DNA from: Phoronis australis
Lineage: Eukaryota; Animalia; Phoronida
Reading direction: 5' to 3'
DNA length: 64,000 nt
Assembly: GCA_002633005.1 (NCBI GenBank)
Contig: NMRA01000054.1
Location: forward strand, 807,674 to 871,673
How positions within the stretch are numbered: the first letter of the stretch is position 1; every line of letters starts with the position of its first letter. Of the stretch, positions 10,182-54,800 are shown piece after piece. The notes below the pieces were generated by a model that was not told the DNA's origin, did no database searches, and was given only the letters and a program-made list of their open reading frames with translations. A program made the translations under genes and the position numbers.

Positions 10182-11303
10182 GTAAACTGGATGAATGTGC
10201 CAACTTAAAAAGACCTGAAATACATGTTTCAGCATTTCAGTATGAATTTTGAAAGTATAAGGGTTGGTTTCTGGTATTCACATTTTCTTAAATAGTGCAC
10301 AGTGTTTTTCTTTTTTACTTTATTAAAATAGACAATTATTATTCCCGTAAAGCCCCTATGCGCTGTTTTTCGTGACGTCACTGAGACTGCTCAGCAAAAA
10401 GTGATATCATTGGCCCTGTGAGTACATATTCCAGTCAACAGATCAACCTGTGCATACCCACAACCTTAGAGCTATAAACCGGCGGAGGTGCATGCAAAAC
10501 CTCAGAGTCAACCGACACGCACCCAGCCCGCTGCAGCCGTTTAAGTGAAAACAATCTAATAAACGCCATTTTCTCCCATAATTTTCCAGCTTTTGCGACA
10601 AAGAAATCAGTCGTCGTTTTGAAAACAGTACGCTGGTGACACGCGCACGCACCATTTCCTAAAATTTTGTGACATCTCTCGGGAGATGATGACAGCTTCG
10701 CAAGATAAAAAATTGTTCTGAAACTCGGTTTTCTGGTATTAAACTATCAAGCACTTGTAACGAATTGAGAGCAGTTCCAATGATTTCTTATGACGTTTGC
10801 GCAACCTCGTGGATGAGAAGAACAGTTGATTTAAAAATAAGGAGAAAAGAAACTGCCAGTGGGTGATGCAATGTTTCATGGCGCCAAAAGCCCGCGCAAA
10901 AGATCGCACCACAATTTTAGTAGCAAAATGACGATAGAATTCTAATTTTTCCAGCACCATCAAAAACTTAGTTTACTCAAGGAAGAGTGTAGTTTTTTAT
11001 TACATTAATTTTGATCATTTTACCCATATCGGAGCAACGGCTGTATATTTAATATACAGCTTTGCACCAAGGCTACGCAGGGTCATGCAGAACGGCATCG
11101 TTCTACTAATATTATAAACGACACGGTAGTAAACTTGTATTATGAACTTTTGAGAGCCAAGATGAAAACGTGGAGACTGGCATAACCAGAAAGCAAAGAA
11201 ATGCACAATTTCGAAATATGGGAATAAAACTTGTATTACTGTAACAACGTCTAATTTATCCAAATCAAGTAGCCATGAATAAAACCTTGATATATTTCTA
11301 GCT

Positions 11304-14300
11304 AAACTTGTGGACATCCGAAAAAGCTTTAAGAATTTTTTTTGCGCTCGAAGGACGGCATTACGAAAACATTGTTGCCATTGAAACACAGTCTTCCAGA
11401 AAGCTTTATGTACATACATGCACCCGCTTATCTGCCATAAAATATCCAGCAGCCTTTGTCGCCTTCAGTAAGTTCGAAGTAATGAGCAGAATTCTGAAAA
11501 TAATTGGCATCCCAAACAAAATTTCTTTGCTGATGAAATCTTACATGAGCTACCGCCGTCAACCCCAAAAGAGGGAGCCACAAGTTGGCGAAAATGTTTC
11601 GTTCACGAGTCGACTTTTTAGTACTGCTAAACAATTTGTCGCTCAAAAATAGTTCGGCAAAGAGACAATTGACGAGAAAGGGAAGTAGGCGAATTTATAA
11701 AAAGCAGAAATGTTCGGTTAGCATTGATTTTGATGCCGGGTGTTATATAACATTGTCATACTTTTTTCGTCGGAAAATACCGCTTCTGGGCTGGGTTGCA
11801 TAAAACTTCAAAATTATCGGCTGGATAAGTTTGATCGTTACATGAAGTCAGGTGCATTGTTCAACAATAACAAAGTGACGCTTTATAATGCGACGTCATT
11901 GTTGCTATAGGGCGTATAACTTTTATTCAACTGGGCCCTGGTTACATGTGCAGATAATTTGACCCAGTGTAATTAAGATAATGCGCTAGAGTTCGCTAAC
12001 GAAGTAAATCACAAAAGTGGGTCTGCGCCTCTTGTCCCTGGTTGTACAATCACAGCGCCATCTGTGGAAGATTACTCTACAAGGATTATACATTGACATG
12101 CATAATTCCATAGTCACCAATGCGCATGCCTTAGTTTGCACGTTTGTCGTGTTGTCGTAAACAAACGACCCAGGAATGAGCTGGACAAGTAAAGGAACTA
12201 GTTCTATGCTTTAATAGATGTCTCACAGAGTCCTCACAGATTATAACTGGTGTGGAATGCATCGATTTAATCAGTTGTTGCAGCGGCCGTAAGTCTCGTA
12301 TGCAAGTCTCAAATTCCAACCAATAGGAATTTCCGGATACTATTTTTTAACCAATCAGAATGTAAGAATGTTCTTTAAATTTAAACAATACGAAGCCATG
12401 AGAATCAAAGTCTCTTCACAATGGTAATATCCGTCTCATTGGGAGAGCGTGTACCCCTGACAGAGGCGGATCTACAGGGGGGGTTCGGGGGGTTCAGAGG
12501 GAAACCCCCCTCTCGACCTTCCTTCTGCTCCGGGCTACGCGCCTCGGATTCGCTCGAATCCTAAACCCCCCCCCCCTTACTGAAAACGTAGATCTGCCAC
12601 TGCCTGATCAAAGACACCCTACCCAAGACATCGCCGATATATTTACGAATGGTAATATTGCACAGGCACTTTGCTAGAACGAGTGCAAGCGCTATTGAGC
12701 TTTAGCTATTCCATAGTTCTGTGGAGCAATTTCCTATGAATTTCAATCATTGAAATTCTAAGGAAATCATCAGAGATACTGTGATTATATTTTCAGAATG
12801 AGCTTCTAGCTCCGCCAGGATTTGGTGCACACGGTGGGTGTGATCAAGGTTCTTTTTCAACTGCGAATGACGACACAACGTTAGACGGGTCAGAGCCCAT
12901 ACAGACTGAGACGTTGTACCATCAGGTGATTCATGCACAGCACTTTAAAGCTGGTGCACACAATAGTGAAATTGGCCTTNAAACTTGTGGACATCCGAAA
13001 AAGCTTTAAGAATTTTTTTTTGCGCTCGAAGGACGGCATTACGAAAACATTGTTGCCATTGAAACACAGTCTTCCAGAAAGCTTTATGTACATACATGCA
13101 CCAGCTTATCTGCCATAAAATATCCAGCAGCCTTTGTCGCCTTCAGCAAGTTCGAAGTAATGAGCAGAATTCTGAAAATAATTGGCATCCCAAACAAAAT
13201 TTCTTTGCTGATGAAATCTCACATGAGCTACCGCCGTCAACCCCAAAAGAGGGAGCCACAGGTTGGCGAAAATGTTTCGTTCACGAGTCGACTTTTTAGT
13301 ACTGCTAATCAATTTGTCGCTCAAAAATAGTTCGGCAAAGAGACAATAGACGAGAAAGGAAAGTAGGCGAATTTATAAAAAGCAGAAATGTTCGCTTAGC
13401 ATTGATTTTGATGCCGGGTGTTATATAACATTGTCATACTTTTTTCGTCGGAAAATACCGCTTCTGGGCTGGGTTGCATAAAACTTCAAAATTATCCGCT
13501 GGATAAGTTTGATCGTTACATGACGTCAGGTGCATTGTTCAACAATAACAACGTGACGCTTTATAATGCGACGTCATTGTGGCTATAGGGCGTATAACTT
13601 TTATTCAACTGGGCCCTGGTTACATGTGCAGATAATTTGACCCAGTGTAATGAAGATAATGCGCTAGAGTTCGCTAACGAAGTAAATTACAAAAGTGGGT
13701 CTGCGCCTCTTGTCCCTGATTGTACAATCACAGCGCCATCTGTGGAAGATTACTCCACAAGGATGATACATTGACATGCAGAATTCCATAGTCACCAATG
13801 CGCATGCCTTTGTTTGCACGTTTGTCGTGTTGTCGTAAACAAACGATCCAGGAATGAGCTGGACAAGTAAAGGAACTAGTTCTATGCTTTAATAGATGTC
13901 TCACAGAGTCCTCACAGATTATAACTGGTGTGGAATGCATCGATTTAATCAGTTGTTGCAGCAGCCGTAAGTCTCGTATGCAAGTCTCAAATTCCAACCA
14001 ATAGGAATTTCCGGATATTATTTTTTAACCAATCAGAATGTATGAATGTTCTTTAAATTTAAACAATACGAAGCCATGAGAATCAAAGTCCCTTCACAAT
14101 GGTAATATCCGTCTCATTGGGAGAGCGTGTACCCCTGACAGAGGCGGATCTACAGGGGGGGGGGGGTTCGCGGGGTTCAGAGGGAAACCCCCCTCTCGAC
14201 CTTCCTTCTGCTCCGGGCTACGCGCCTCGGATTCGCTCGAATCCTAAACCCCCCCTTACTGAAAACGTAGATCTGCCACTGCCTGATCAAAGACACCCTA

Positions 14301-14658
14301 CCCAAGACATCGCCGATATATTTACGAATGGTAATATTGCACAGGCACTTTGCTAGAACGAGTGCAAGCGCTATTGAGCTTTAACTATTCCATAGTTCTG
14401 TGGAGCAATTTCCTATGAATTTCAATCATTGAAATTCTAAGGAACTCATCAGAGATACTGTGATTATATTTTCAGAATGAGCTTCTAGCTCCGCCAGGAT
14501 TTGGTGCACACGGTGGGTGTGATCAAGGTTCTTTTTCAACTGCGAATGACGACACAACGTTAGACGGGTCAGAGCCCATACAGACTGAGACGTTGTACCA
14601 TCAGGTGATTCATGCACAGCACTTTAAAGCTGGTGCACACAATAGTGAAATTGGCCTT
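11304..14658. repeat. 1.68-kb near-identical tandem duplication (11304-12979 and 12981-14658), probably uncollapsed haplotypes
   Basis: Both copies run aaacttgtggacatccg...gtgaaattggcctt. They differ only by scattered SNPs and homopolymer lengths, and are joined by a single N at 12980. Confidence 0.95.
12461..12602. mobile_element. Short GC-rich MITE (CAG...CTG) with 5-bp TSD; duplicate copy at 14139-14281
   Basis: TIR CAGAGGCGGATCTAC / GTAGATCTGCCACTG, flanked by CCTGA on both sides. Confidence 0.8.
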
Positions 14659-17487: not shown

Positions 17488-20124
17488 ATGGGATTGGCGA
17501 ACAGTAAACACAAAGGTTTTGGTAAGAAGTCTAGTTTGTTATAGTTCATGAATGCCACGTTGATCTGCATAGATCATCTACAAGCAAGCTTTGTATTACA
17601 AATAAAACTTAAACGATAAACATTTAAGTATTCATGTTCCCCCACTCTTGGGTCCTTTTTGAAAGTCGTACATAAACATTAATCCATTTGTGACGTTGAA
17701 AATTGTTGACAGCACCCGTAGCATGTCGAATACAGTGTTTTTCTTTCAGGTTCTGCATATCACGAAGGTGTCCACTACCCAGGCTCTGAAATAAAGACGC
17801 CTCTCCCGGATTATGACGACGAGCCTGCTCTACAAAATACAGTGGTCAGTCAAATAGCTCCTCCGACGGAGTTTATGGACATTCCGCCGCCTCCGAACTA
17901 TCCAGCCCCATCTCCTCCGAAATTGTCAAATAGGTCATACTTACCAGAACGGTCTGCATCAATGCCGTCAATATATTCTGCTTTCCCGCACCAACAGTTT
18001 TACTATGACCCAGAAATTGCCCGCAGGATGTCGCTACATGTAATTCACGAAAACGCCTTACCCATGCAATATAATCCCTATGCTGTAGCTCCAGCGGTGC
18101 CATCACAAGGATACATATACCCTCCTCAGGGATATACGTACGGTCTTCAGCCAGGCATGTGTCAGCCACAATACCCGTATTTTCCTCCCGTTATTCCCCC
18201 TCCCCCGTCGTTCCAACCCCCATCTCCTCCTGTTCAAAGAGCTCATCAAGCGTCGACAGTGCACCCAACAGCGACGTCAGCAGCACCTGTGAAAAAAATT
18301 ACACCCCCTCCCCCGTCATTCACCCCACCACCTCCGCCATTGTGCACGCAGTCTTCAAATTCGCTCTACCAGAACAGTGGCGCTTTAATCCGAGACCATC
18401 AAGTTGGCGCACGAATGTCCAGCTCGGAGAGCTATGAAGCACTTTTGAAAAAATATAGCACGGACGCGCACGAGTTCCCACCTCCCCCACCAGCTGAGCA
18501 CCAAACAACACAACGTGAAAAGCAGGAAACTCAACAGCATGAACGTAAATCCTCACATTCAGAAAATCTGAAACCATCTGAAGCAACACCAACAACGGTG
18601 TCAACAGAGCCACCTATTGCGGAGCCTCAAACGCACTTTGATGCACCAGATGATCCGATTTACTCCACAATTCAAAACGTCGACGGTAAACCACAAACAG
18701 AATGTGTAGCTATTGAGAAAAAACAGAAGAATAAAAAAGATAACAAAAAGAAGGAAAAGACAGAAAAGGGTACATTAAGTAAATTTTTCGGCAAAAGGTC
18801 TAAATCAACGTCAAAAATCCCTGAAGTGTTCTCCGAAGCCCCCCCTCCTCCACCGCCTCCTCCTGCTGTGGCAGTACCTCCCCCGCCGCCACCACCTGTG
18901 TTGGAACCAACAGCCAAGAGTTCGTCTCACAGGTAATTGTGAGCAAAACTTAATACATTAAGTGAAAATGGTTACTTTTGCATGTGCATTCCATGCTCAT
19001 TCAAGTTACTTTGGCTTTACATTCAGAAAGCAACTCATTCAAATAACATGTTTTCGAACTGGCAAACCCCCGGAAGCGCTTTTCGAATGTTATCCACTGC
19101 AAGATACATCTTTGCGCAATACTAAATTAATTTATCAGTGTAGTCAAGATTTGAACACGAGTCTTACAAATGGGTATCTTCCTAAACTCAAACCGTTGAG
19201 CCACACTCTACCCTCAGCCCATTCGTGTTGTTTCCATAACGACCACTCCCACCTTTTCGTCAGCTCGTCTAGTCTATTTACAAAACAGCTTGAAGTATTA
19301 AAACTATCATGCACACAAAAACAAACATGTGATCCCTAACATATTTTTAAAAGAAATTTTTTGTTCGAGATTAATGAAATTTTAAAGTCTGTATTCCTCT
19401 TTTGAGCAGACGAAAGAGCGACGCTAACTCCAACACCCAATCGCCTCCCGGTGATTTGCTGGCAGAGCTGAGAGCTGCCAATGGCGTGACGTCGTTGAAG
19501 AAGTTTTCGCCGAATGCTGACGAGATTCACCGCCAAAGTGCTCTGCCATCATCAGCCGACGCCAGGTCAAGCCTTTTGGCAGAGATAAAGGCTGCCAATG
19601 GAATGAAGTCGCTTCGCAAACGCCCAGAAAGGAATTCAAATCGTGATTTGGACCTCGGTGACACTACAAACACCGCAAGCCCTAAACCAGTTGATTTACT
19701 TTCGGAATTAAAAGCTTCAAACGGGAAAATGTCTTTAAGACGCACTAAAAAACCTGCAAAGTGGGGTGCTGAATTAGGTTTGTCTGAAATTAATGAAAAC
19801 CCTGGACAGGCTGACGATGGAAAATCGGAAGAGGACCACGAACCTATATATCATGTGCCATTGAAGAAATCACAGGTATGATAAAGATATGAAATTATAT
19901 TAAGAGCCCAACGTTTTGAGCATCACTCTTACCTGTGCAGTGTTGACTTCCGACTTAACTTCCTCCTGCATTCTATCATATCTATTGCGAAATAGCATTA
20001 TACAATTTTTATCCACCTATGTCAGTAATGGCACCGGCTTTCAACATCTTTCTCAATTTTACATTTCTCTTGAATTTAGGTATGTATGTATGTATGCATG
20101 CGTGCGTGCGTGCTTGTCCGTGTA

Positions 20125-27074: not shown

Positions 27075-28584
27075 TAGGATAGCGCCAAAAAGTGAGACAC
27101 TTATTTCCGTGGAGAGCGTGAAGACAGACAAAATACACAAAACATTGATAACAAAGTGTTCTTGCGTTCTTGTTGTATTTCATTAGGACTCGGATTGTTG
27201 CAGTTATGCATTGTTTTAAGTACTAGCCTATTGTTATTACTATTTTAGTTGTATTAGCTAAAAATTAATAGTTTAGGCAAAATGTGAGCCTACGTGATAG
27301 ACGGTTTCTTTACTTGTCACTCTCGGCTTCCGTTTTAACCTAACCATAAATCTGTGTTAACATGTGCTATGCAAATGAACTTTTAACACCACGGTGAACT
27401 GAGTGAAAATTGCTGTGTATCTGGTATTTAGGACAGGATATTCTGAAGTGTGTGTTGATATGAAATATAGTTGGAATATTTTCGAAGAAGATTTCGCAAC
27501 ACTCGATGACAGATTACAGTTGGGTGTTCCAAAAATGTTACTAAAAATAATCTGGGCTGTGAATACCAGGAAATTATTTGAATAGTGGTGTTTTGGAACT
27601 TCCTGAATCCCAGTTACTTTCGCAAGGCATTGAAGTAGGGCTCTTTGACCTTTAATAACTGGGAAATGACAAATGATTTTTCATAATCTGCAGAAGTCCC
27701 GCTCTTACAGCCTTGGTACGCTCCACAGAATGAGTACTTCCCATTCAAGTACTGTAGTTTTTGCTCAAAATCAAACAAAAATTTCCTTTCAGAAAATAAG
27801 GAAACCGCTTTTAAATTTTCTCAGCTTCGTTGAAAATTTCTCGATTTATGCGCTGGAGTTGCACAACTATTTGCTTTTGGTGACAAAACGCTAAAATTTT
27901 GGTCTCAAAAATAAGAGTCAGCTGTTATACTTTATCTAACTTCTACGCTCTGCAAAAGAAACTTTAACATCGTTGGAATAATAAAAATACTGTTTCCAGT
28001 AAAACCGCGTCTTGTTACCACTTTTAGTTGGGCGTGCAATATTTAACACAGTAAACTCACTCGTTGTGACAACATGAACAACAGTGATGAATCCTTTTCA
28101 GACAACCACAGTCTTAGTTTATTTCAATATATCACCCATTATCAAGTGAACCTCTTTGCCATTTACAGTACTAATGTGTGCGTACTGTAGCTTTAAATTC
28201 ATTTAGTTGACGATATTATGTCAAAACACAATAACCGGTCTGAATCTTTATCGCAATGCCTTGACGAAAATTTCGTGGCGTTTCATGTTTAGAAAAAAAT
28301 GCTGACACCTATAACTGTTCTGCTAGTGTTATATGTCCCTTTTATTTTCTTTTACATTTACATCAATGATATTTTCATGTCTCCTTCATATTTTCATATC
28401 TACATTGAGTACAAAGCTATTGTTCCAGTTCGTCTAAGCCTCACTAAGTCACAATACTACCCACTTTGTAAGTTACTTCACACAATAAAGCATCCCAGGA
28501 AACTCTGCAGTGGTCCATTTTTCCAAGACGAAGATAGTTCACAACGTAAACTGCGCAATGTTTATGACTTAAACTTGGCCATCT

Positions 28585-31500
28585 TTAATTTTTAAGGTAT
28601 TTTCGGTTTATATTTCTACGATGTCTCCACAGAACTGAAGGTGGTTGGGCGCCGTGTCCGTTGTCGTTGTTTTTATCCAATGCGACCCTAAGTTTGTCAA
28701 GAATATCCGATAAGCTGAACCCAGTATACGCTTTGCTGTTCATGTACGCACCAACGTCTTTCCGCTTCACCGCCAAGAATCCTGGAGAGTTTTTCTAGGG
28801 AATAGAAACAAATCAATCTTAAAGTAATCATCGGGAAATGCAAATTCGTGCTGATTCTGCATACTGATGGATTAGCCTTACATAAAGGTCATATCTCCCG
28901 GGTTTATCGTTGCTGTTATTACATTTTGTCTAGTTCAGTGAAGGTGCGTTCACATCACTTCGTAACTCTGTCTGCCCAACCCTTGATGGAGGTGATTGTT
29001 AACAAGGGTTTGTTTCATTCCTGTATTAATAAATCAGGGCACACGTTGCAGCCTGATTTGTTTCAATTTTGTAATAAATCGGGTTGTTGTAACAAATCGG
29101 GGCCGAATGTAGTGATTTTGAGAGCATTGACAAGGCCAGCTCGGGAAATTGGACCCTTATTCTTCCTTAGGGCGGTACTTCCACAGCCGGGGTCAACTGC
29201 CATGGCGTGCTCGGGTAGTGTTCTCCCAGAGCAGTTTGGAGCGGGGTTCTTCCCGATCCAACCAGGTTGGGTACAACCACAGTCAGCGCGGGGGTACTTC
29301 GATAGTCACTTTGTAATGTAGACAGTGGCAGTGTGGCGGGGGGCGCGGGTCTAGGCCCCCCCTGGAAAGGCATTACGGGGGCGTCAAATCATAAAATATA
29401 CTGCTTTAAGTTGCATGTATAATTTTTTTCCTTTCCTTGTGTCGGCCGTGTGTCCAGGTACTGGGTCGAAAAATCAGAAGCTGATCAGAACATGAGCTAC
29501 CAAGTCACGACTTAAGTTTATTGCAAAACACATGATTGTCTGTTACAGTCGTCTCCCAAGATTTCCTCCGTAAACATCATTTTTAGATCCCTATGGTTTG
29601 TTCCATGTCAAGAGAATTTCTCATACTTGAACTCACAGAAAACATACGTGGTGAACACATATAGTTTCACAAATAATTGTTCAAGCGAAAACACAAGAGA
29701 TAGATTACATCTGAAAAATAGTGGAAAACAATTTAACTACGGTATGCAGTAGACCAAAAATTGCACCATCTAAGCTGGGTACATGAATTCAAGTATTTCT
29801 GATCTGCTTGTTCATATCTCACAATTTTAATCCCGATGACTTGACAAAGTATCGAAGAAAAATTCTGGTTACGAGAACAACTTTTATGAAAATCTTCCTA
29901 AAAAGTAGCTATAGCGAAGCAGAAGTAAGTTCATCTAATCTAGGATTGGAACCAAGGAAACCCCTCTTGAAATATAAGATGCACCGATCTGTATCGAGGA
30001 CAAATCCTACAGTGCTAACAAGTCATTTGATTTACTTGCACCATCAAATGTTGGTGCAATCACCAACGGCAAACATTGTATTTCTTGAATCATCTCCGCC
30101 CCAGTTTGAAAGGCATAATTACTCCCACTTGTAGCGAAAATGACAGCGAATTTCAAGTTGATGAAATACGCTATTATATGTCAAATGGCATACCTTCAGA
30201 AACGTCAGATAATGTCTAAGCGTCGTACTTAGGACCAAGGACTAGAATCGAATCAGCAATCAATGGCGAAATTGACAGCAGTAACCACGATAATAAAATA
30301 TGTGAAACAGTAAATATACGTGCATATGTAGGTGCATCCAATAACGTCACCGGAAACAGTAAAGTGGCGCCGTTATGCCAGGATCCTAAGACATCTCGTT
30401 CACCCTAAAAAGCGTTAGATCCTATGAACTTCGTCTGTCAAGTCAACATCAATGTATTTCTAGTCCCAAAAAATAAGATTTTGAAAATGGAACCGTACCA
30501 GTCAGAAGAAACATTCCTATATTCCCGAAACAAGATAATCTGACAAAAACAGGGCAACTGCTCCCAACAAGTGTTTTCCACACGCCTTCTATGAGAACAA
30601 AGTGGTTATCGTACTCCTTAGCCATCAATTTTCTGTTCAGCATTCCGTGCCTGCTACGTTCTCCCTTTTAGATGTAGAGGGCAACTAGTCTAGACTACAA
30701 TATAAAGGATTTTGAGAAATCTCGAGTTCGAGTCTGAGTTTGAAGCCCGGCCTGGAACCTCAGGAAATCCTTGCGTGCGCGCGGCGCTTACATAAACAAG
30801 AGAAGGGCGTTGTTCGGGTACAAGTTACGTCCGTCTAACGACGTTGATATTATAGAATGCGCAGCTACGTTTTGTTAGATTGGCGCATTTGTACGGGATA
30901 GGTGATTTAACAAGTCCGTGAATTGTGTTCAGCCAAAATTAGGGTCGTAGTAAATTGAATCACTGCCGATGTGTCCTTTTCCTAGTTTCGTGGAAAATAA
31001 AAGTGTGTCGACTTCTTTTCTTCGCTTGGGATTTATTACCCATCAGCGTACATGTTGACCAAACAAGATTGGCAGACCACTTTCAAAATATACCACGAAT
31101 AACACTGTAAATGCACATTTTTAGTATGACATTCGTCAACTACACAAAAATCACAGTTGCATTATGTTTGCGCAGTTCGTGAAGCCTTTGTAAGTGTCGC
31201 TGAACAGAGTTTGGGGCGTACAGTGGGGGATGGGCATTTTCTCACCCCCTCTACCCACACCGTTACTTATTGTAAACCAGTGAAAGGAGTAAGGGGTCTT
31301 AATCAAAAGATCGCTTGTTGAATGGAGGCGGGTTTAAAGATACTCTAAAATGATCGAGTCCACAATCAGCACTAAGCTCAAACCGTATTTAGTAAAATAC
31401 GGAGATTGTCAATTCTCTTATTAGAAAGGCTAATCATTCCTTCTAAGCAAACATTAAGCTCTGCCAATTAGAGGACTGGTAATCTCCGGTGTATATTGAT

Positions 31501-34500
31501 TCATTGAATAAGGTAATTTTTGCAGGAAATATTTGCTCTTAAATTTGATTTGAATGTTAGGAAGGAAAAGTTTGAGACCAATTATTCAACGCTAGTGTTC
31601 CACATGAAAAATTTGTCTTTAGTATAGAAAGTGGGTATCAATGATCACAAGTACAAAAGTACATGTAACATTAGTATCGGCAGAAGAATCACTTCTACGG
31701 GTTACCTGAAATTCTAAAGTAATCTGGTCGTGTAGCTTGAAGCAAATTCAAAAGTTTCATGGAACCAAAAAATTGGATGGGAAAAAGTAAAAACTCGGTA
31801 ATTCCGGAAGTGCTAAAACTAGCGGCACTAGTGGATGTTTTGTGATGACTTGTCCGGCGAATGAGATATATTGCTCATTGTGTATGGCATTATTATGACG
31901 CGACTTGGATCCGCAAATAGGAATTGTACACAAAACATACCGTGAGTGGCGTACATGAAGTAATATCCCACGAGACATTATTCGAGTATCGACAGAGACC
32001 GAAATACGCTTCGAATTCCTAAGTTTTTTTAATTTTTTCGGCAGATTTTTTAACTACTTCACTCAGACTGTTCACGTAGCGGATCACATTATATTTGTAT
32101 GTACTTGCGCGTTAGGTTGCAAGTTTTTTTTTCTAGTAAAAGAAATGTTTTAAACGTAACGATCTATTAGTTGAAAAGAGATGACAAAGATGAAAACAAC
32201 GGTAATTGTGCATTGACCTTGAAACATTTCCTGAAAATAGTTAAGTAACAACAATATTTGATATTGTACTTACCGAGGAATCGGCACCTGAGTTTCAGAC
32301 GATATGATATTTAGGAATTGAAAACTGAGACAGAACTGTCATATAATCAACAGTTTTGTACCGTACGTTTGGGACCTGATTGCGTGTCGAGTGATATTTA
32401 TACTACTGCAGGATATAAATACGGAAAACATTATTACATGGCCTTATTGCACTCGACTGATTCAACGCGTATGGCATAAAAATGCAGCCACTTTCACGTT
32501 GTCAAAATAGATAGATAGATATTTCCCATTCAGGTAACCACGGGGGGAGGGTATTTCATCAAGATTGACCAGGTCCATATCCCTAAAATAATTGTCAAGG
32601 TGCTTAGTAATTTAAAGCGCTACGTAAAATCTGGCCGAATAATTACAGTGCTTTTTAATTTTGGCATTTTAATTTTATATGACCGTGTCCAAAACGTAAA
32701 ATGGCGTCCAACTAAAGAAGCCCACGTGACAGAAAGCGCCAAAACATGTCGGCAGCTGTCAAATCGGTCAGCTACTCTGCTTAACTTTGGCTCTATAGTT
32801 TTAGTCATGCTTATTTCTGGTTCGAGTAAATGAAGTTGTCACTGTGCTAATTCACTTCTGATGTGTTTTTCGAACGATGCTTATTGACAAATAGTGCGTA
32901 TAATCTCAATTTGGACAGTGGCAGGTATCGAAGTCTTAATTAGGCGAAGAATCTCAGTGTTGATTATGCAAGCGATCGAAGAAGACTACGTAGAGCACAA
33001 CAGATTTTCTGGGCCTCATATTCACGTAAATTTACATGCGAGCTTTCTTAAAGTAGCATATTTACTGAGTGATGTATGCGGCTTTTCATTTTTTAAATTT
33101 GTATGATGTTTAGTTCAAGTGGGTGATAGACATCTTGCTTAAAGTTGTGTTAATTTGGTTTTGCGCTTCATTGTTCACAAACCCATTTTGGTGATTGCCA
33201 CGGACGGCATTCAATAGTTCCTTGAAGATGTTTTGAGTAAATGAAATCTAGAAATTTGACTTTTGCGGGAAATTTTTGACACGAATTCAGGTACTCTTGA
33301 AATAAAAGAAAAATGACAAAAATCTGGTTGGTAATGACATATTTTAACCTAATTTTCTGAAATCTAGGGTGCAAAAGCATTTGGCTTCTTGTCTCTTTGC
33401 ACCTGGGTTGTCGTGAATTTGTGATTTTAGGTGTAAATAGACCATTGGTCATTTTTTGGCATCTTTTCTATTTCAGTGCACGTAGCGAGGAAAAAGATAT
33501 GGCTTTTTTGAATTTGTTCATCTTTGAGAGACTCCGTCGAGTGTGATTTCTACGAGTCATGCCCTTCTAGACATGATGCAAATATGGGATTTTATTGACT
33601 CAGACGAGTGTTGACGTCAAAATCAACCACTTGAACTTTGATGGTTGTCCTCTATAAACTTTTTGGTGGAGCCATTTCCATCGTCAATATGACATTTCTT
33701 CACTTTTTATAACAAATCTAGCCATGAACAGGTCTATTTATGACAAACACCATTTACAGTGATAACAAAAATGTTTTGAGTTTTGAATTGGATTCCCTAA
33801 TTAAAAACTGGCGACCTTTGAATGAGTTTTACTGTGCCCTGCATGAGTATGCCTTGAAATTTCACAATGAAAACTGAAACTACTTGCACAAATGGTGCCA
33901 ATAAATGTTTTTAAAGGAATCGATAAACTTGATGTTGCGAAAGTGTCATAAAATTTATGGTAAGTGGGAACACTTAAAACAAAAACAGACCACGTTTGAC
34001 CATGGGTCAGTTCACTGACCAGCCATCAGCTGTACTCCCATTTGAATGGTCAACGACAGAGCAGTCAAACATGTCTTTTATTACAGTCATAATAAATTGC
34101 ACTTACGTAGTAGTATCCATTCTTTAGTGCACTAGGTCATTAACAACGGAGAAACCTACAGTTTCATTTATGTTAAGCAAGGTTTTTATTACGCAATGTT
34201 CAGACGATAAATTCTGCTTCTGTGAGTAGAAGCGCGTCCTTTTGCATCCTCTGATATTTAAAGCAATAAATTAACTCTTTATTCACACCCGAAACAAGTT
34301 TTTTATTGCACAATTTCTGGACAACAAGTTGCATTTGTGTGTGTAAAATCAAGTCTTTGAATTCCCCCCTGGGGTTTCTTTAATGAAAAGTGACTTTAGA
34401 CTTTAATCACAAATTTGGTCTGGCAACCCTACATTATAATTACCAGGCTCATTAAGATACAGTTATGCAATTATTGGAGCATTACTACCGACATGCAAAT

Positions 34501-35055
34501 TGTTTCAGTCATTATAGATGTGCTCTCAGATACTTTTAATTTTTTTAAAAAGGAGTTTCACTTATGTTTAGACATAATTATGTGGAACGTAAGACCAGAT
34601 TCCTGACTCCAGTCTAAGTCACATTTCACGAAACAAACTCTAGATATCCACTAATTCATGTATCTAACAAGCCTATTACGCAATTCTAAGATGATTAATT
34701 TCATTTATGAGCGTATTATACAGTCTTTGAGTACCCCTTCGTATTCACAATAACAGCAAAAATCCGAGTTCACTAATTCTAGTGTTAAACAAATCTTTTA
34801 ACATTCAAATCCAAGGTAGTTCACTCAGTACAGTATGGTAACCATAACGACAAAAATATGTGTCCACTAAGTAAGAATTTGTTCACAATACCAGTAATGC
34901 CAATTTTAATTACAGATGTAAAATCAGCGGGAATCACGCAAATACAATCCTACCATGATTGCGTCGTTGCCTTCAAAGTCCTCGTTGAGGCAATGCACAC
35001 CAAACACCATCAAGCAGAACACGAAAATAAGAACCGAAGTAACTTTCTTATCCAT
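28585..35055 (-). CDS. Putative secreted neuropeptide/peptide-hormone precursor, 103 aa, two coding exons (35055-34954 and 28794-28585)
   Basis: Exon 1: gcaagATGg start, MDKKVTSVLIFVFCLMVFGVHC-LNEDFEGNDAIM|gtagga (signal peptide plus acidic spacer, phase 0). Exon 2: tttctattccctag|KNSPGFLAVKR-KDVGAYMNSKAYTGFSLSDILDKLRVALDKNNDNGHGAQPPSVLW-RHRR-NINRKYLKN* (phase 0). Minus-strand AATAAA near 28341-28346 and a TATATA about 40-45 nt upstream of the ATG. Confidence 0.75.
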
Positions 35056-38000
35056 CTTGCTCTGTATTCCCAACGCTAACGATCCGACAACATGTATATA
35101 TGTGCTCTGAGATAACTATTCGCTTGACGTTCATTTCCCCATAGATCACTTCTCTTCGACAACTCGTAATCGAAACAATAACAGGTTCGATTAACTAGAC
35201 CTAATTAGTCGTACAGTCATTTAAACCCCGGTGGAAATTTGTTAGGTCATCCATTAGCGTGTATTTATCAACCCACATCTTTCCAGGAAGGGGTGAAATT
35301 TAGTTTTCATTGTTTATTTCAATAAATAGTTTGGTGATAAGAACTTTGCGATATGGACGTCACCATTATCACTGCGACAACAGTTTAGATTACGTAATTC
35401 CTAACATTTAGCTTCCAGCAAATAGAGCATTAGGAGATATACATCATAAACAGAAATTTCATTGAAAATTACAATCTATGGCTTTATCAAAATCGATTTA
35501 AGTATAGCTTACAACAGTGAACATTTAGTGAATGAAGGAAAATTCTCTCAGCAGCACTCTTGAAAGCAAAGATCTTTGACGATGTGTTGATATGTTCATG
35601 TTTTTATGATACCTTTTTCAAAAAAGGGGTGCATATTGACGTTTGATGACACATGTAAAATTTTGATTAATCCCCTTTCTAGACACGTTTGAGTATTATC
35701 ACGTTATTTTGGTGTGCATATGTGAAGGGGAACCGCCATGACGTGTATGACGTCAATAATTCTGACCAACTGGAAATATTTCGCGAAATAACCTTTAGCA
35801 GATTAGCAGAAACGTGATGCGTAGTCCTGAAGCGCTATCCTCTACAACACTGGTTACGTCAAATTCCGGTTGTTTACATCTTGTCCAAGCGTCTTGCTAA
35901 TGTCCAAGCTTAGGACAAAGTTAAGGCTTGGCGCACAATTCTTCAGATCGTCGCACCTAACCCTGTAGCATCTATATACGACCCTTCTCTCAGATGATTG
36001 CCCGGCACTGTCTAAACTCCGAGATTCTCGGACCTTGTCTATAGTGAAAATTGCTTACACTGTCATATCGCCACTGGATCCCCTCGAAAGCTTTGGCGAC
36101 CAGTGGGGCGTTTGAAATTGTGGTGAAAGGTGGGAATAATAATGACGAAAGCCCCCAGACGTTTCATATCTTGGAACACTGAGAATCCGTAATACAGAAC
36201 TGCTTGTTTGCCAAGACACGTGTTACCATTTTTAATGGTCCCGTGAATCTTTGACCCAGAACTTGCTGAGCACTTGTTCGCCATCTTGATGAATCTTTAC
36301 TTCCTTAGAGTCACACATACTTATTACTAACCTACATGTTTTATTATTATTATTATCTTTGAATTGTTCAACCGGGGACAACAATAGTAACTTGAGTTCT
36401 GAAGATCGGCTGAACAGACCCACTTGTGAAAATTTGGTGTAACTCTAAGCCAGCATCGTCGTATAGCGCACTGTTCACTTTTCTCTGCACAGACAGAAAA
36501 AGCGGAAATAAACAGATCTGCATGAACATTTAAATGTAACTACTCGTGGGGAGAAATAGATTAAATTGCAAACCTCTCGAGGAAAATCACACAACATTTT
36601 CATGCAAAGACTCACAGCCATCAAGACATTCTGACCAAACTACCAACAATTAGAGAATTATTAAAAACTAATTGCTCGGGATCGAAAGAAAGAAAGTTTG
36701 ACTAACTTGAATACCACTATTCGGAAATTTGCCAAAGACAAAATAGATTAAACTTATGTGTAATGATGACATAGTGTATGTTACTATTTTGCAAGCAGTT
36801 TATCCCGTTCAATCCGCCATCTTTTTGGTCACATCACGTGACCTAATGAATATAAGTCCGAAAACATTTCTGCCCCCCACGCCTCACTGACTAAAAATAT
36901 ATTTATACATATGTTACTGTGCTTTCGCTTAAATAATTTGAAGTTGAATAGTATTCCTTTTACGATTGAAACATTATTTATGAAGAATATCGATAATGGA
37001 GTATAAATAACTTGATTATTTGTGCCACATTCACTGGATAGATCAGACCGTCGACCGGTTTACTTGTAAACTTTACGGATTCCATGGTGCCCAGTACTGA
37101 CAATCGTTACAAACCAAAGATTTTTTATGCTATTTTGCGATATAAACTTTTCTTCTGAATCAAAAACAGGTTAAATCTAGAATGTCCCTGACTGAATTCA
37201 CGAAAACATTTTTCAGGAGGGTACCCACACCAACCAGCCAGCCATCTGTGGAATACCTCCGAGTCCGTCAGGTATCTGTGCTCATGGATTTAGAAGTCGT
37301 CTAAACATCCCTGACTGTGAAACACGAAGGTTTAGCAGGGTTTGACGAAATCGAAGTGGTCTTTCCCCCCGTAATGATTTATACCTTCACATGGGCTTTC
37401 TAATGGTTAATGGACTCGCGTTTGAACAGCCATTTTACATGTGTTCATTCATTAAACAAACAGCTTACAGTTTATGAAGTTGAGTATGTAAATCAAGGAT
37501 AAATTATCTATGTCTCACGTAATGGCAGATTTACCATGAAGCTTGGCCTTCAGGCATTCAGTACCGGGGGGTGCCTAGTCCCGGAATTCCATTTTAAGTT
37601 GACTACGGAACGTGCTGTTTAGGATGGTGGGTGTATCTTAAAGTTTCGGGACCAGGGTTTCCCTCGCTTTACCCTCTAATAGAAGGTACAAGTAGGTAAC
37701 AAAGGAGTAACATTCCAATATCTTGCTGAGATCACCCAGTGAGTCCGCCACTATGGAAGGTAAATACGTGGGAAGAATATGTGCAAAGATCTATGAGAGT
37801 CTGTGAAGCGATCAAAATGGCACGAGAGTTTGCGAATTCCTCAGATCAAAACAAGGCCAACGCAAAACGTTAAAATGGGTCCACGGCTGTAACGCAAACC
37901 TGCAGTATAGGGGTGTTTATTAAGTTCCTACAATTTGGCCATTGTGATATCGAAGGGGAATTAAAACGACTGGTGCTGGCCCCTGCGTGATACAACTCTC

Positions 38001-49773: not shown

Positions 49774-51198
49774 ACTGACAAGCCCTCAAAAGACAACAAT
49801 CACCAAGTCAAACAACACATGCGTCATGGCACTGCGCAACATTTCAACACTCATTCCTCGTCTTCAGTGTCATGCCAAGGTTGACCAATACTCACATAGT
49901 CAATTCACGTCGTCGAAAACTAACACAGAACATCCCCACTTGTTTAAAATTTAATTAGGTCTTTCACCCTAATGAAGTCGATCATAGGATTTATACTTCC
50001 GTGAAGAAAAAGAATCCGTCAGTGAATCAAGAAAACACTTCAGATTTTATATGGGATTGGTCAGGACCAAAATTGTGAATTCGAAAATGGCGCAATTTCA
50101 TATTCCCTGTGACTTGAAGTGCCGGCTCATTGGGAAACAATATAAGATTGGATCAACGTAGCAATACTCTTAAACCCCAAAGCGCTTTGGTTCAGAATTG
50201 AAAATTGACGACATCAATTTTCCCACTGTAGCCATTTTCTCGGATTCATTACTTTTTGTCCATCAAATTCTAAAAAATGGCATTGACAGAACAAAAGAGA
50301 CCTCTGTAGGGATATCTTCCCAGTTAGTGATTATAGGTCTCATACAGCAAAAGGTCTGTATTCCTAGTGTTAATTCAGGCCTCATCGTTTTAAAGTTACA
50401 GCACAGCCGTTGATGTTGAATTTAAACGTAACCAAATCCTGTTTTTGCTCATTGGTAGATGTTAAATTACGGATATCTTTGTTACAAAATATTTCCTTAT
50501 AAACCAGTTGTCAACCATCAACAGTTTGGAAGAAGTTTTGAAAACTCAGCGCAGAAACTGTTAAATTGGCCAACATTGCTAATGGATTAGGAATGTCACT
50601 CAGTAGCTTCACAGTGAGAATATGCTTATTGTGCTGATTTTTGTTGTTGTCTGCAGTCAGGCGCACATTAGCCTACATATGGGTGATGTCATGAATTTGA
50701 ACTAAATAACCCAAACGAGAGTTTAATATCCTAGGTCTTACCATCAACATTCCTTTACACGTCCTAAAACTGCATTGCAGCTAATATCCATTGTTCTACA
50801 GGGTTGGTTTAAGACGACCTACCTCTTAATTGCATATGTTAGCCAACGCCCTCTTTAGGAAATTGACCCCGCTTACAGCCACCTTGTTAGTAGCAGAAGA
50901 CTAACTTCCTAAAACCTCTTTGATGAAGTGACGACAATAGTAACATTATGTCAAAAATCTCGCGATCTATTTCTATGAAGCTCGAGAGCAGTGTAACTAA
51001 GCGAGAGATTTTAGACCCTCTATTAGCAAATTAACTGCATTCGTTTGAAGAAAGCAAACACTCCAACAGGGAAACTACAAAATTGTCCAACACCCCTTAT
51101 TCTAGCATGACAAGAGATGAGAGTACATTGACCATTAATGTCGAAAATCAAAATGTTCTTGGCCAGTTTCAAAATCGTTTATGTGATCATCTTTCAGA

Positions 51199-54100
51199 AT
51201 GCACAACGGTGGTCCACGTTACTCACCTGCGCCCTCTTGCGATGAGGCGGAAATCTATGATACTCCGCCGTCAGACGAGTGCAATGGAAACACAATTGAA
51301 GTTGACATGTGCGAATCTCAGACGAACACGTTATCTTCACTTGTTCGTAAAAAGGGTGACGGACCTAAGGAAAAGTTTCTCATCCAAGAACGGTTAGAAC
51401 GTAACTTGCACGGCGGAGACGTGTTCTACGTGAAGTCCTGCGTTAACCGTAGAACTGCATTGGAGAGATACCTTTGTATGTTTTGCTTCCTATTCTTTGT
51501 CGGGTGTGTAGTAATGATGACGATGTTGTTAACTGTGCACAAAGGAAATGGACCCATGGGGAGCCTCAATCTATCTAGAACGGACAGATTACAGCAAGGT
51601 AAATGTTGGATTTCTAAAGATTTTATATGAGCAGAAATGAGTTTTTGATCTGTCAGTTAATCGAAGAAGATATTTGGGCAGAAATGTAAATGAATTTTAT
51701 ATGCGATAATTGCGAAGCGATACCGAAGGTAGTTTACAGTGAAACAACATGTGAGAGTGAGATAAAACGTCATGTGTATTATGACAAATTAAACTACAAA
51801 AGATATCGATAAATACAAAAGTTATATATGTTGAGCTGTAAAGGTGGGTGACAATCTGCCGGCCTAATTACTCATTTATTCAATCTTAAGACTATTTCTT
51901 TATCCGTCTGACCCATCTCACAGGCCGATGGTAACACTGGGCCAATTTGAAAAAAAATCGTTTTGTTGCATAAGATTACGGCTTTGAAGTAAAATAAGTG
52001 CGTTTTTTCTATTGTTTTGCCCTAGCTTTTCCACAAGTCTGCCTTAGCGAAGATTGTGTCAAGACAGGTAAGTTAAAGTTCAAAAATATTGGAAGATTAT
52101 GAAAACAGGCTTTTTATTGCAATTTTCATACATTAACATTCAGACGAACTATCCATCGCACATGATGTTTAAAAGAGTTGTGATGTAACCATGTTAAGAA
52201 ATGGACCGCAGAAAAATGTCCAGATTTGGCTAACTTTAGAACATCATGTCTCAGAAATGGCTAATCGGATTCGAATGAAACAGAAATTTTGCTTTATGTA
52301 TGGTTCTTCAGACCGCCACTTTTGCAAGAGGAGATATCTAAAATAGGACTTTAACGATTTTTATGAAAGATCAAAAGTTTCATAAAACGACAACGAAACT
52401 TTCATTTAAAAAAATAAAAGAGCAAAATTTCATATTGCACAGTCATATCAAATGAAATTTGGTCATGTTTTTTGCCTCTAGTTTGCTATGAATGTAACTT
52501 TCTATTTTACTAAATTATTTTTAAAACCGAAGGCAACCTTTTTCATGTCACTTTTAGCAAACATAAGGTTCGTTGATTATCCCAGACACATTTTTCACTT
52601 AATTACAGCTTTTCGTAATTTGGTTAATTTCTCGTCCTCTGCTCCAGAAGTGACGTTTTGGGAGGCAAGAGTTTCGCGCCAATTTCTTTTCATTATAGTC
52701 TGACTGTGAGAGCTGTCCAGTCAGTTATTGTTCTACCTCGGTTGTGATAAGTTCGGTCCTCGTTTGCTTTTGTTTGCAAGTCAGTCAACATGCCACGCTG
52801 TTGCTACCTGCCGGGATGTACTCATTATCGTCTCACACGCGCTTTGGGTACCTTGCATCGCTTTCCGAAGGATGACACACTTCGCCTTACTTGGCTAGCT
52901 CGTTCATGTGAAGAACGCAGCGCTACCCGTCCAGGCAACGTACAAAGCAATGGAGGGTTACCGAGTGTGTGGCAAGCATTTTCTGCCGTCAGATTACGAC
53001 AGAGATATGTACGCTAAACTGATGAACGTCCCTGCGAAACAACGCCTGAAGAAGGGTACCATACCGTCGCTGTTGATTCCCGGCAGTGCCCCGTCGTCAA
53101 CCCCGAGAAGTGCGTTTTTCAAGCGAGAAGCCTCGCGATCGAGCTGTGGCCACTATATACAGTGACTGGAGGCACTTCCTCTATACTGTCACCCGTGCCT
53201 CCGAACGTAACCCATTGCGTGCACTTTCGGGAACTAGCAGTGATTCGCCCTGTGCTGTTGTCTCTAGCCCAGAGCCTGTAAGCAGCCCTGCAGCTATGTT
53301 GAGTAGTGGGAGTGAATACAGGCCCAGTTCGACACCCAGTGAAGACGACAGTTCGTCATTCAATGAACAGATCGGTGAGCCTAAGTTTGAAAAGTTTATT
53401 GCGGTCTTGTATTGGAGCTATTTAGAAGGTGCCAGGTGTGTGGCGAGGGAGTCACACGGCGGGATGTAAGCAGTTTGGGTGCTCCGATCACCCACCAGTG
53501 GGACTGTGTCGCGGGGCACTCGGGTAAGTGGGATAGTTCTTCCTCTGTACGTGAGACGATAATGAGTACATCCCAGTACGCTGCAACAGAGTGGCATTTG
53601 ACTGACTCGTACTCGAACTTATCGCAACCGAGGTAGAACAATGACTGACTCGACTGCTCTCACAGTCGGACTATATGAAAAGAAATTGGCGCGAAATTCT
53701 TGCCTCCCAAAACGTCACTTCCGGAGTAGACGACGAGTAATTAATTAAATTACGAAAAGCAGTAAATATGTGAAAAATATGCCTGGGATAATCAACGAAC
53801 CTTATTTTTGCTAAAAATGACATGAAAAAAGGTTGCCTTCGCCTTTAACGCACACGCACACCTGTGCCCCGTTGAATAAAACAGTCCCAAATGGAGACTC
53901 AGCTATGTTCCCCAAATCTTTTGCGTATTTGTTTTCGTTTTTACTTACAAATGTAATATTTCTGTATCATTTTATCTTTATTATGAGCTCCTCTTTGACT
54001 AATGATATTTACTTATAATATTATTAAAAACCGAACCCTTAGTTCAGTCAAAATAATTAGGAACATAGTCTTTGAATTAGGAGCGTTGCATGAAAATCCC

Positions 54101-54606
54101 TTCTTATTTTCAGTAACATTGAGAATTCAACGTAGAGTTAATTCTCCATTTTTATCAAAGTCAAAATCTGACTTAGTAGTGAGACTCACACAGCATAACA
54201 AAGGACAATCAGAGTGTCCCCAAGTCCACAAATACGCAGATCATTTAGGGAACTTGGCTGAGTCCCTATTAAAGGCTATCATGTGACCGGGCACATGACC
54301 CATCAATGGCAGATTGGTATGAAGGCTTTCTAGTTCAGAAAATGTACTTTTTACTGAAATAAATTGTGAAGTTTTTTTACGTATTTGACTGGGGGCAGAC
54401 TTGACGATAAGGTCTTACATGACCTTAATGTCAGCTCACTGAAATGAGTTTCCAGTAACATTTTTTATTTTTTATTTAGCTTAGTACACAAATAACAATA
54501 CAAGGCAAGTGAAAATAAATAGAAATGCTGGGGAAAGGGATTGCACAAAAAGTCCATTGCTGTCCGAAGTCTCCTCTTAACATCACCTTGACTTTAAGAT
54601 ATGATA

Positions 54607-54644
<38 letters not shown>

Positions 54645-54762
54645 AATGATGATGGTGATGACGTTGATGATGATGACGATACTAATAATAATGATAATAA
54701 TGATAATAATAACAACTACAACAATAATAATAATGATGATGATGATAATGATGATGATAATA

Positions 54763-54800
<38 letters not shown>

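What the first reader, a model, noticed from the sequence alone, without database searches (positions are those of the whole stretch)
28585..35055. Hidden two-exon prepro-peptide gene of no family I recognise
Seen: a 102-nt exon too short for the ORF track encodes a textbook signal peptide (MDKK, hydrophobic core, VHC|) and an acidic spacer. It splices in phase across a ~6.2-kb intron to an exon carrying KR and furin-type RHRR sites. These sites bracket a 45-aa peptide, KDVGAYMNSKAYTGFSLSDILDKLRVALDKNNDNGHGAQPPSVLW, with no Cys and no C-terminal amidation Gly. Established: signal + acidic propeptide + dibasic sites is the standard neuropeptide/hormone precursor layout. Inference: the amphipathic helix SLSDILDKLRVAL loosely recalls CRH/DH44 peptides (SLSIVNPLDVLR..L) and other class-B GPCR ligands, but spacing and C-terminus differ, so it may be a new or strongly diverged peptide family.
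Basis: partly seen in the sequence, partly recalled or inferred. Interest (0 to 1): 0.85.

Follow-up and report, generated by a model that had tools for sequence, protein, structure and literature searches.

The report
Spliced gene for calcitonin-like orphan peptide
A small two-exon animal gene, shown by RNA reads to be spliced and expressed, encodes a predicted secreted precursor whose predicted 45-residue peptide has no database match and likely descends from the calcitonin/DH31 hormone family, although it lacks the cysteine pair and the amidated end typical of that family.

Summary
The gene is real. A 102-nt exon (35055-34954) and a 210-nt exon (28794-28585) on the minus strand flank a 6159-nt GT-AG intron. 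Exactly this joint appears in 31 reads from 3 of 3 raw RNA runs (2, 4, 25; one study), all in one orientation. The 103-aa product has a signal peptide, a short acidic spacer, KR and RHRR sites, and no Cys or amidation Gly in the 45-mer. No homologue was found. The CRH/DH44 lead is weak: its hallmark motifs are absent and the helix moment does not beat shuffles. Against published spiralian precursors the peptide matches calcitonin/DH31 end to end in four short motifs, including the non-amidated P-x3-L-x-R-x-R-R end of phoronid calcitonins. A separate end motif recalls iPTH/PXXXamide, with Trp at the Gly position. All motifs were chosen after the fact, and defining features of every family fail, so it is filed under none. 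Best reading (0.4): a derived calcitonin/DH31-type ligand for a class-B1 GPCR. The host phylum is unresolved. Interest 0.45.

The parts
35095..35100 (-). TATA-like box (TATATA), 45 nt upstream of the ATG
   Evidence: no read depth in bins 35112-35600; promoter function inferred
34990..35055 (-). Exon 1: predicted signal peptide, residues 1-22 (basic n-region, hydrophobic core, V-x-C cleavage context)
   Evidence: (Kyte-Doolittle 3.4 over residues 8-18); SignalP not available
34954..34989 (-). Exon 1: acidic spacer, residues 23-34
28795..34953 (-). Phase-0 GT-AG intron, 6159 nt, with a dispersed repeat at about 31930-32480
28768..28794 (-). Exon 2: rest of the propeptide, residues 35-43
28762..28767 (-). 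KR dibasic site (followed by a third basic residue), residues 44-45
   Evidence: cleavage inferred from prohormone convertase rules
28627..28761 (-). Predicted mature peptide, 45 aa, net charge 0, no Cys, ends in Trp; predicted central helix
28615..28626 (-). RHRR furin-type site (R-x-R-R), no preceding Gly
   Evidence: cleavage inferred
28585..28614 (-). 9-residue basic tail and TAA stop
28118..28584 (-). 3'UTR, with AATAAA at 28346 and 28123; end not mapped
   Evidence: depth falls to 2.7 in bin 28000-28253 in the best run

Best explanation
This is an expressed, spliced two-exon gene whose 103-residue product is predicted to be secreted and cut at KR and RHRR into a 45-residue linear peptide that likely derives from the calcitonin/DH31 family and would signal through a secretin-type (class B1) GPCR. 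Shown: transcription, the splice joint, the reading frame and a roughly tenfold difference in junction reads between samples. Inferred from established precursor biology: the signal peptide routes it to the secretory pathway; prohormone convertase or furin cuts at KR and RHRR; carboxypeptidase trims to a free-acid Trp end, since no Gly is there for amidation. Inferred from motif likeness only: descent from calcitonin/DH31, with the cysteine ring absent as in DH31 and the Pro-amide replaced by a short extension as in some phoronid calcitonins; a central helix would dock on the receptor's extracellular domain and raise cAMP or Ca2+. My odds by step: real gene 0.97, processed secreted peptide 0.85, class-B1 ligand of any kind about 0.6, calcitonin/DH31 origin 0.4.
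For: Splice joint in 31 reads, 3 of 3 raw RNA runs, one orientation. Precursor anatomy. Four motifs read from the Thiel 2021 supplement (PMC8557429) occur in the family's order: (1) D-x-G-[YF]-x-S-R just after KR, in 6 of 6 DH31 entries shown, matched here with two one-residue insertions (151 of 1,000,000 shuffles); (2) [LI]-[SE]-[DNE]-[ILV]-x-[DAN]-K-[LM], in 3 brachiopod calcitonin peptides, matched without gaps (66 of 1,000,000); (3) K-[LM]-x(1,2)-A-L-x4-D, in 2 of 6 DH31 entries (1011 of 1,000,000; motifs 1 and 3 together 2 of 1,000,000); (4) P-x3-L-x-R-x-R-R without Gly, the end of a calcitonin peptide in 3 Phoronis species, in exact register (P-x3-L part: 5092 of 1,000,000). Each occurs once in the six frames of the window, here. 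Family counts were made by eye. Cysteine loss has a precedent in DH31 (PMC3890597 passages). A single-sequence AlphaFold model puts a helix on exon-2 residues 28-43 (mean pLDDT 65.8).
Against: No profile or sequence search finds the family: Pfam none at E<=1, PDB sequences none at E<=10, none among 1.84 billion representatives, no fold match at E<=0.001. Strict DH31 patterns and P-G-basic are absent. The motifs were picked after seeing the peptide and two were loosened to fit, so the shuffle counts overstate the case; an iPTH motif picked the same way scores as well (52 and 9 of 1,000,000). The C-terminal amidated Pro, described as conserved in CT/DH31 peptides of many taxa, is missing. The peptide is 45 aa against 31-33 for mussel calcitonin-like peptides. 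The intron is phase 0, nine codons before KR, whereas isoform pairs of spiralian calcitonins imply phase 2 just before KR (my reading; DH31 phase not seen). The helix moment is not above shuffles. No orthologue is in hand.
Confidence: 0.4

Rival explanations
1. A lineage-specific neuropeptide or peptide hormone unrelated to any described family; the motif likenesses are chance or convergence on a helical secreted peptide.
For: All searches blank. Three families each yield a post hoc motif, which shows how easily such motifs arise. Defining features of all three fail. The intron phase differs from that inferred for calcitonin and iPTH genes.
Against: The calcitonin/DH31 motifs run in order from the first residues after KR to the second cleavage site. 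Searches with a 69-aa query cannot see distant peptide relatives, so the blanks are weak.
Confidence: 0.27
2. A diverged iPTH/PXXXamide/QSGamide (PTH-type) precursor in which Trp stands where the amidation Gly stands; it would act on the PTH/glucagon/PACAP-type (cluster B) receptor.
For: iPTH entries for Capitella, Sepia and Notospermus end G-H-G-x3-P-x3-G-basic (PMC7224569 Table S1); the window peptide has G-H-G-x3-P-x3-W-R in the same register with an upstream S-D (10 and 2 of 200,000 shuffles; 52 and 9 of 1,000,000). The Trp codon differs from a Gly codon by one base. A diverged iPTH paralogue keeping mainly the C-terminal motif is listed for Paranemertes. PTH-type receptors are reported in ambulacrarians with no ligand found in ophiuroids (PMC5627052 passage).
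Against: The S-D-x-R-L start, the L..L..L helix pattern, the [IVFL]-[DN]-P core and G-basic are all absent; the paper calls the amidation signal strictly conserved. S-D lies 18 residues into the peptide, not near its start. Isoform pairs imply phase-2 introns in iPTH genes (my reading); here phase 0. No phase-2 G-basic-basic exon was found downstream in the window and no such joint is listed.
Confidence: 0.13
3. An exocrine product (venom, mucus or defence peptide), possibly a fast-evolving mimic of DH31/calcitonin rather than an internal signal.
For: Signal + acidic spacer + basic sites is also the layout of many venom and antimicrobial precursors (own knowledge). DH31-like peptides are reported in venom-gland transcriptomes of centipedes, spiders and a caterpillar (PMC13311285 passages). 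Expression is uneven across samples and no relatives are found.
Against: Net charge 0 and an unremarkable hydrophobic moment do not fit a membrane-lytic peptide. Expression is modest even in the best run (25 junction reads in 11.0 million records). No paralogue in the window. Tissues and host biology are unknown.
Confidence: 0.12
4. A CRH/DH44/ELH-type precursor.
For: Nemertean DH44/ELH peptides contain L-S-D-[IMF]-[ILV], as here (662 of 1,000,000 shuffles); length near 41-44 residues.
Against: Neither DH44 pattern tested, N-terminal or the amidated C-terminal one, is present; no Pfam or PDB hit; the C-terminal third is Asn/Gly/Pro-rich with low confidence in the model.
Confidence: 0.05
5. A decaying duplicate of a peptide gene, still transcribed but no longer yielding an active peptide.
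For: Absence of both the ring and the amide would be expected under decay; purifying selection could not be tested.
Against: Intact signal peptide, both cleavage sites, clean splicing and sample-dependent expression. None of the 40 difference rows or 7 indel rows listed falls in the coding sequence while several fall in the 3'UTR, but 152 difference rows were not shown.
Confidence: 0.03

Closest known systems
Spiralian DH31 precursors (brachiopod, nemertean, annelid)
   Same: Single Cys-free peptide after KR; D-x-G-[YF]-x-S-[RK]-like start; K-L-x-A-L-x4-D-like middle; short precursor of about 100 aa.
   Different: Two one-residue insertions in the first motif, about 12 residues longer, no P-G-basic end, furin-type second site.
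Spiralian calcitonin precursors (brachiopod and phoronid)
   Same: L-S-[DN]-[IL]-x-D-K-L-R as in a Novocrania peptide; A-L-D-x-N-D-like stretch and non-amidated P-x3-L-x-R-x-R-R end as in Phoronis peptides.
   Different: No cysteines; one peptide copy; short propeptide; phase-0 intron against an inferred phase 2.
iPTH / PXXXamide / QSGamide
   Same: S-D upstream, G-H-G-x3-P-x3 directly before the cleavage site, signal + short pro + KR layout.
   Different: Trp for Gly, no [IV]-[DN]-P, no S-D-x-R-L helix, 17-residue extension before S-D, phase-0 intron, short C-terminal tail.
CRH / DH44 / ELH
   Same: Length and one L-S-D-I-L stretch.
   Different: No hallmark N- or C-terminal pattern, no amidation.

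Membership tests
Secreted peptide precursor (general) | Spliced, expressed transcript with intact frame | tested here: met
Secreted peptide precursor (general) | N-terminal signal peptide and basic cleavage sites | tested here: met
   rule-based, SignalP not run
Secreted peptide precursor (general) | Mature peptide detected; neuronal or endocrine expression | not testable with these tools
   needs peptidomics and in situ hybridisation
Calcitonin-type | Two N-terminal cysteines | tested here: not met
   no Cys in exon 2; feature
Calcitonin/DH31 | C-terminal Pro-amide (P-G-basic) | tested here: not met
   non-amidated phoronid calcitonin ends exist
DH31-type | D-x-G-[YF]-x-S-R start without cysteines | tested here: inconclusive
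   strict pattern absent; matched with two insertions
Calcitonin/DH31 | Central helix motif ending K-L | tested here: met
   ungapped match to the brachiopod motif, chosen post hoc; helix predicted
Calcitonin/DH31 | Profile hit to family models or solved peptides | tested here: not met
Calcitonin/DH31 | Intron phase before the peptide exon | tested here: inconclusive
   phase 0 here; phase 2 only inferred from calcitonin isoform pairs; DH31 not seen
Calcitonin/DH31 | Activates a CTR/DH31R/cluster A receptor | not testable with these tools
   no genome or receptor sequence held
iPTH/PXXXamide | S-D near the peptide start followed by the conserved helix | tested here: not met
iPTH/PXXXamide | Pro at -4 before the amidation position, preceded by G-H-G | tested here: met
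iPTH/PXXXamide | Gly + basic amidation signal | tested here: not met
   Trp at that position in the assembly; no read difference listed there, but the list was cut
CRH/DH44/ELH | N-terminal L-S-x...L-D-x-L pattern and amidated C-terminal pattern | tested here: not met

The most novel reading that the evidence does not exclude
It marks an undescribed branch of class-B1 GPCR ligands: a cysteine-free, non-amidated peptide that carries calcitonin, DH31 and iPTH-like marks in one chain and is the ligand of an orphan invertebrate B1 receptor; if the host is an echinoderm or hemichordate, it could be the PTH-type ligand that searches in ophiuroids did not find.
Probability: 0.15. Interest if true: 0.75.

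Novelty: new variant of a known kind. Interest (0 to 1): 0.45.

Why it matters
It is a confirmed small gene of the sort that ORF-based annotation misses, and a ready candidate ligand. Pairing of the two spiralian calcitonin/DH31 receptor groups with their peptides is described as unsettled (PMC8557429 passages), and PTH-type ligands were not found in ophiuroids. A Cys-free, non-amidated peptide that still activates one of these receptors would show that two features treated as hallmarks of the family can both be dropped. If it is only a lineage-specific peptide, it is an ordinary addition to a neuropeptidome.

Tried and rejected
No whole genome is held, so paralogues and receptors could not be searched. 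Homologue searches with exon 2 (69 aa; the joined 103-aa product was not used as a query): no candidate in the 5.8-billion set at 37-121 aa; 0 hits at E<=0.001 among 1.84 billion representatives; ESM Atlas gave only viral hypothetical proteins at 0.87-0.90 with low recognition; PDB sequences 0; Foldseek 6 rows at E 4.6-9.6. The metagenome scan gave 2 loci from 459 pattern matches; in both the matching frame is broken by stops or shares only the seed word, with no signal or cleavage layout: chance. Exact-word searches: 3 unrelated papers; no related precursor among the places shown from the Thiel supplement (not all places were displayed); 0 in 3 sea cucumber supplements. Such words would miss a relative at 50% identity. 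Earlier scan findings: none. Host placement: the neighbouring neprilysin's best stored match is the annelid Dimorphilus, 48% over 376 aa, with arthropods at 38-50%; no deuterostome or mollusc protein was among the named hits, so the phylum is open; one search found nothing and cluster look-ups named no close relative. CpG observed/expected 0.94, Rfam and tRNA scans were uninformative. No RNA holder was listed by index; the RNA runs came by species label. No DNA run was laid. A close read-level view of the Trp codon and of the transcript's 3' end is not in hand, so a Gly allele at low or half frequency is not excluded. Alternative acceptors: 6 of 33 pyrimidine-rich AG sites give 50 or more codons in phase 0, and only 28794 is seen in reads. 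The amphioxus PTH paper PMC4833073 was not held, so amphioxus PTH-like peptides were not compared. A likeness to the first residues of vertebrate PTH is recalled only and untested. No profile built from published family sequences was run.

Full report
Observation. On the minus strand, 35055-34954 encodes 34 residues and ends at a GT donor; 28794-28585 follows a pyrimidine-rich TAG acceptor and encodes 69 residues and a stop; the intron is 6159 nt and phase 0. Joined, they give 103 residues: a 22-residue predicted signal peptide, a 21-residue spacer whose exon-1 part is acidic, KR, a 45-residue peptide of net charge 0 without Cys, RHRR, and a 9-residue tail. The ATG has a strong context, an upstream in-frame stop and a TATA-like box 45 nt upstream.

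Expression. One contig run holding 0.09 of the sampled words and three raw RNA runs with the same species label were returned. Laid on 28000-35600, the three raw runs show the predicted joint in 2, 4 and 25 reads (2, 4 and 17 starts), all first mate on +, from about a fifth of each run; they come from one study. In the best run depth is about 32 on exon 2, 18 on the 3'UTR and 11 on the exon-1 bin, and depth downstream of the Trp codon (40 reads at 28515) is at least that at the joint, so read-through to this stop is the main form. The contig run covers only 28293-28545 and differs at 10 letters and 3 gaps. The gene is therefore real and unevenly expressed. No DNA run was laid, and the difference table was cut (40 shown, 152 not).

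Homologues. None were found with exon 2 as query: Pfam, the 5.8-billion set, the Atlas, PDB sequences, 1.84 billion representatives, metagenome contigs (two chance loci), fold search of a low-confidence model. For a 45-residue peptide these blanks exclude only close relatives. No genome is held. The flanking M13 neprilysin gene shows an intron-rich animal without a close relative among the hits; its best stored match is an annelid at 48%, which does not fix the phylum.

Family comparison. I compared the peptide by eye with published precursors and then tested short motifs. Calcitonin/DH31 (PMC8557429 supplement, parts 8 and 10 of 386): the peptide starts with a DH31-like D-x-G..Y..S-K needing two one-residue insertions; carries L-S-D-I-L-D-K-L, an ungapped match to a motif in 3 brachiopod calcitonin peptides; continues K-L-x-x-A-L-x4-D as in 2 of 6 DH31 entries; and ends P-x3-L-x-R-x-R-R, the register of non-amidated calcitonin peptides in 3 Phoronis species. 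Shuffle counts were 151, 66, 1011 and 5092 of 1,000,000, and 2 for the two DH31 motifs together. iPTH/PXXXamide (PMC7224569 Table S1, part 1 of 2; PMC8557429 part 26): G-H-G-x3-P-x3 stands directly before the cleavage site with Trp in the Gly position (52 of 1,000,000; 9 with an upstream S-D). DH44/ELH: only L-S-D-I-L (662 of 1,000,000). All motifs were chosen after seeing the peptide, and two unrelated readings reach similar rarity, so the counts rank the leads at best and are not probabilities. Strict hallmark patterns of all three families fail. Isoform pairs in the published sets imply phase-2 introns for calcitonin and iPTH genes (my inference), against phase 0 here. The amphipathic helix is predicted but its moment is matched by 1512 of 5000 shuffles.

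How it most likely works. The precursor would enter the secretory pathway, be cut at KR and RHRR and trimmed to a linear free-acid peptide, and be released from a restricted cell population. Its closest likeness is to calcitonin/DH31 peptides, which act on CTR/DH31-type and sometimes PDF-type class-B1 receptors through cAMP and Ca2+ (PMC12638048 passages). I put calcitonin/DH31 origin at 0.40, an unrelated lineage-specific signal at 0.27, iPTH at 0.13, an exocrine or venom peptide at 0.12, CRH/DH44 at 0.05 and a decaying duplicate at 0.03. It is not filed as a member of any family, since a defining feature failed in each.

Literature seen. Passages only: PMC8557429, PMC7224569, PMC7251081, PMC10508912, PMC11521371, PMC5627052, PMC4772807, bioRxiv 10.64898/2026.06.22.733765 (62), PMC5818035, PMC9049855, PMC7200681, PMC12638048, PMC13311285, PMC3890597. 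Supplements: PMC7224569 file 1, part 1; PMC8557429 three parts and five word searches; PMC6586643 word search. Eight library searches showed no description of this peptide; figures, most subscription papers, preprint supplements and unread supplement parts could hold relatives.

Verdict. It is a real, easily missed peptide-precursor gene, most likely an unusual variant of a known ligand class; the family and receptor remain open until orthologues are aligned. Interest 0.45.

Noticed in passing
window 51187-63178 (+): Multi-exon M13 neprilysin/ECE-type peptidase gene running to the window's end; Pfam Peptidase_M13_N hits on three ORFs, 48% to Dimorphilus over 376 aa. A peptide-degrading enzyme 16 kb from the peptide gene; no link shown.
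   Followed up: partly
window 17722-19881 (+): Two proline-rich ORFs (404 and 167 aa), the second with repeated 'LLAELKAANG'-like units and a weak WH2 hit (E 0.28); no Atlas hit. Probably exons of an actin-binding protein; espin-like is a recalled guess.
   Followed up: partly
window 31930-32480 and about 34400-34425: Dispersed repeats in the intron; many diverged RNA reads with loose ends, on both strands for the first. No Rfam or tRNA match.
   Followed up: partly
window 28630 (-): A GT lies inside the Leu codon before the Trp, where spiralian iPTH genes appear to have a phase-2 intron; weak donor, no such joint in reads, no G-basic-basic exon downstream in the window.
   Followed up: yes
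window 28402 and 28434: 3'UTR polymorphisms: a substitution (9 of 15 reads) and a 10-nt deletion (11 of 24 reads) in run X4, also in X2 and X3.
   Followed up: no
window 11302-12677 and 13010-14356: Near-identical translations about 1.7 kb apart suggest a local duplication or two copies of one element.
   Followed up: no
window about 60065-60270 (+): Inside a neprilysin intron, a short frame with C-x4-C and F-P motifs that looks like a THAP zinc-finger remnant (family name recalled, not tested).
   Followed up: no
PMC8557429 supplement part 8: Three Phoronis calcitonin precursors hold a peptide with cysteines but no amidation Gly, a natural precedent for loss of the Pro-amide.
   Followed up: partly
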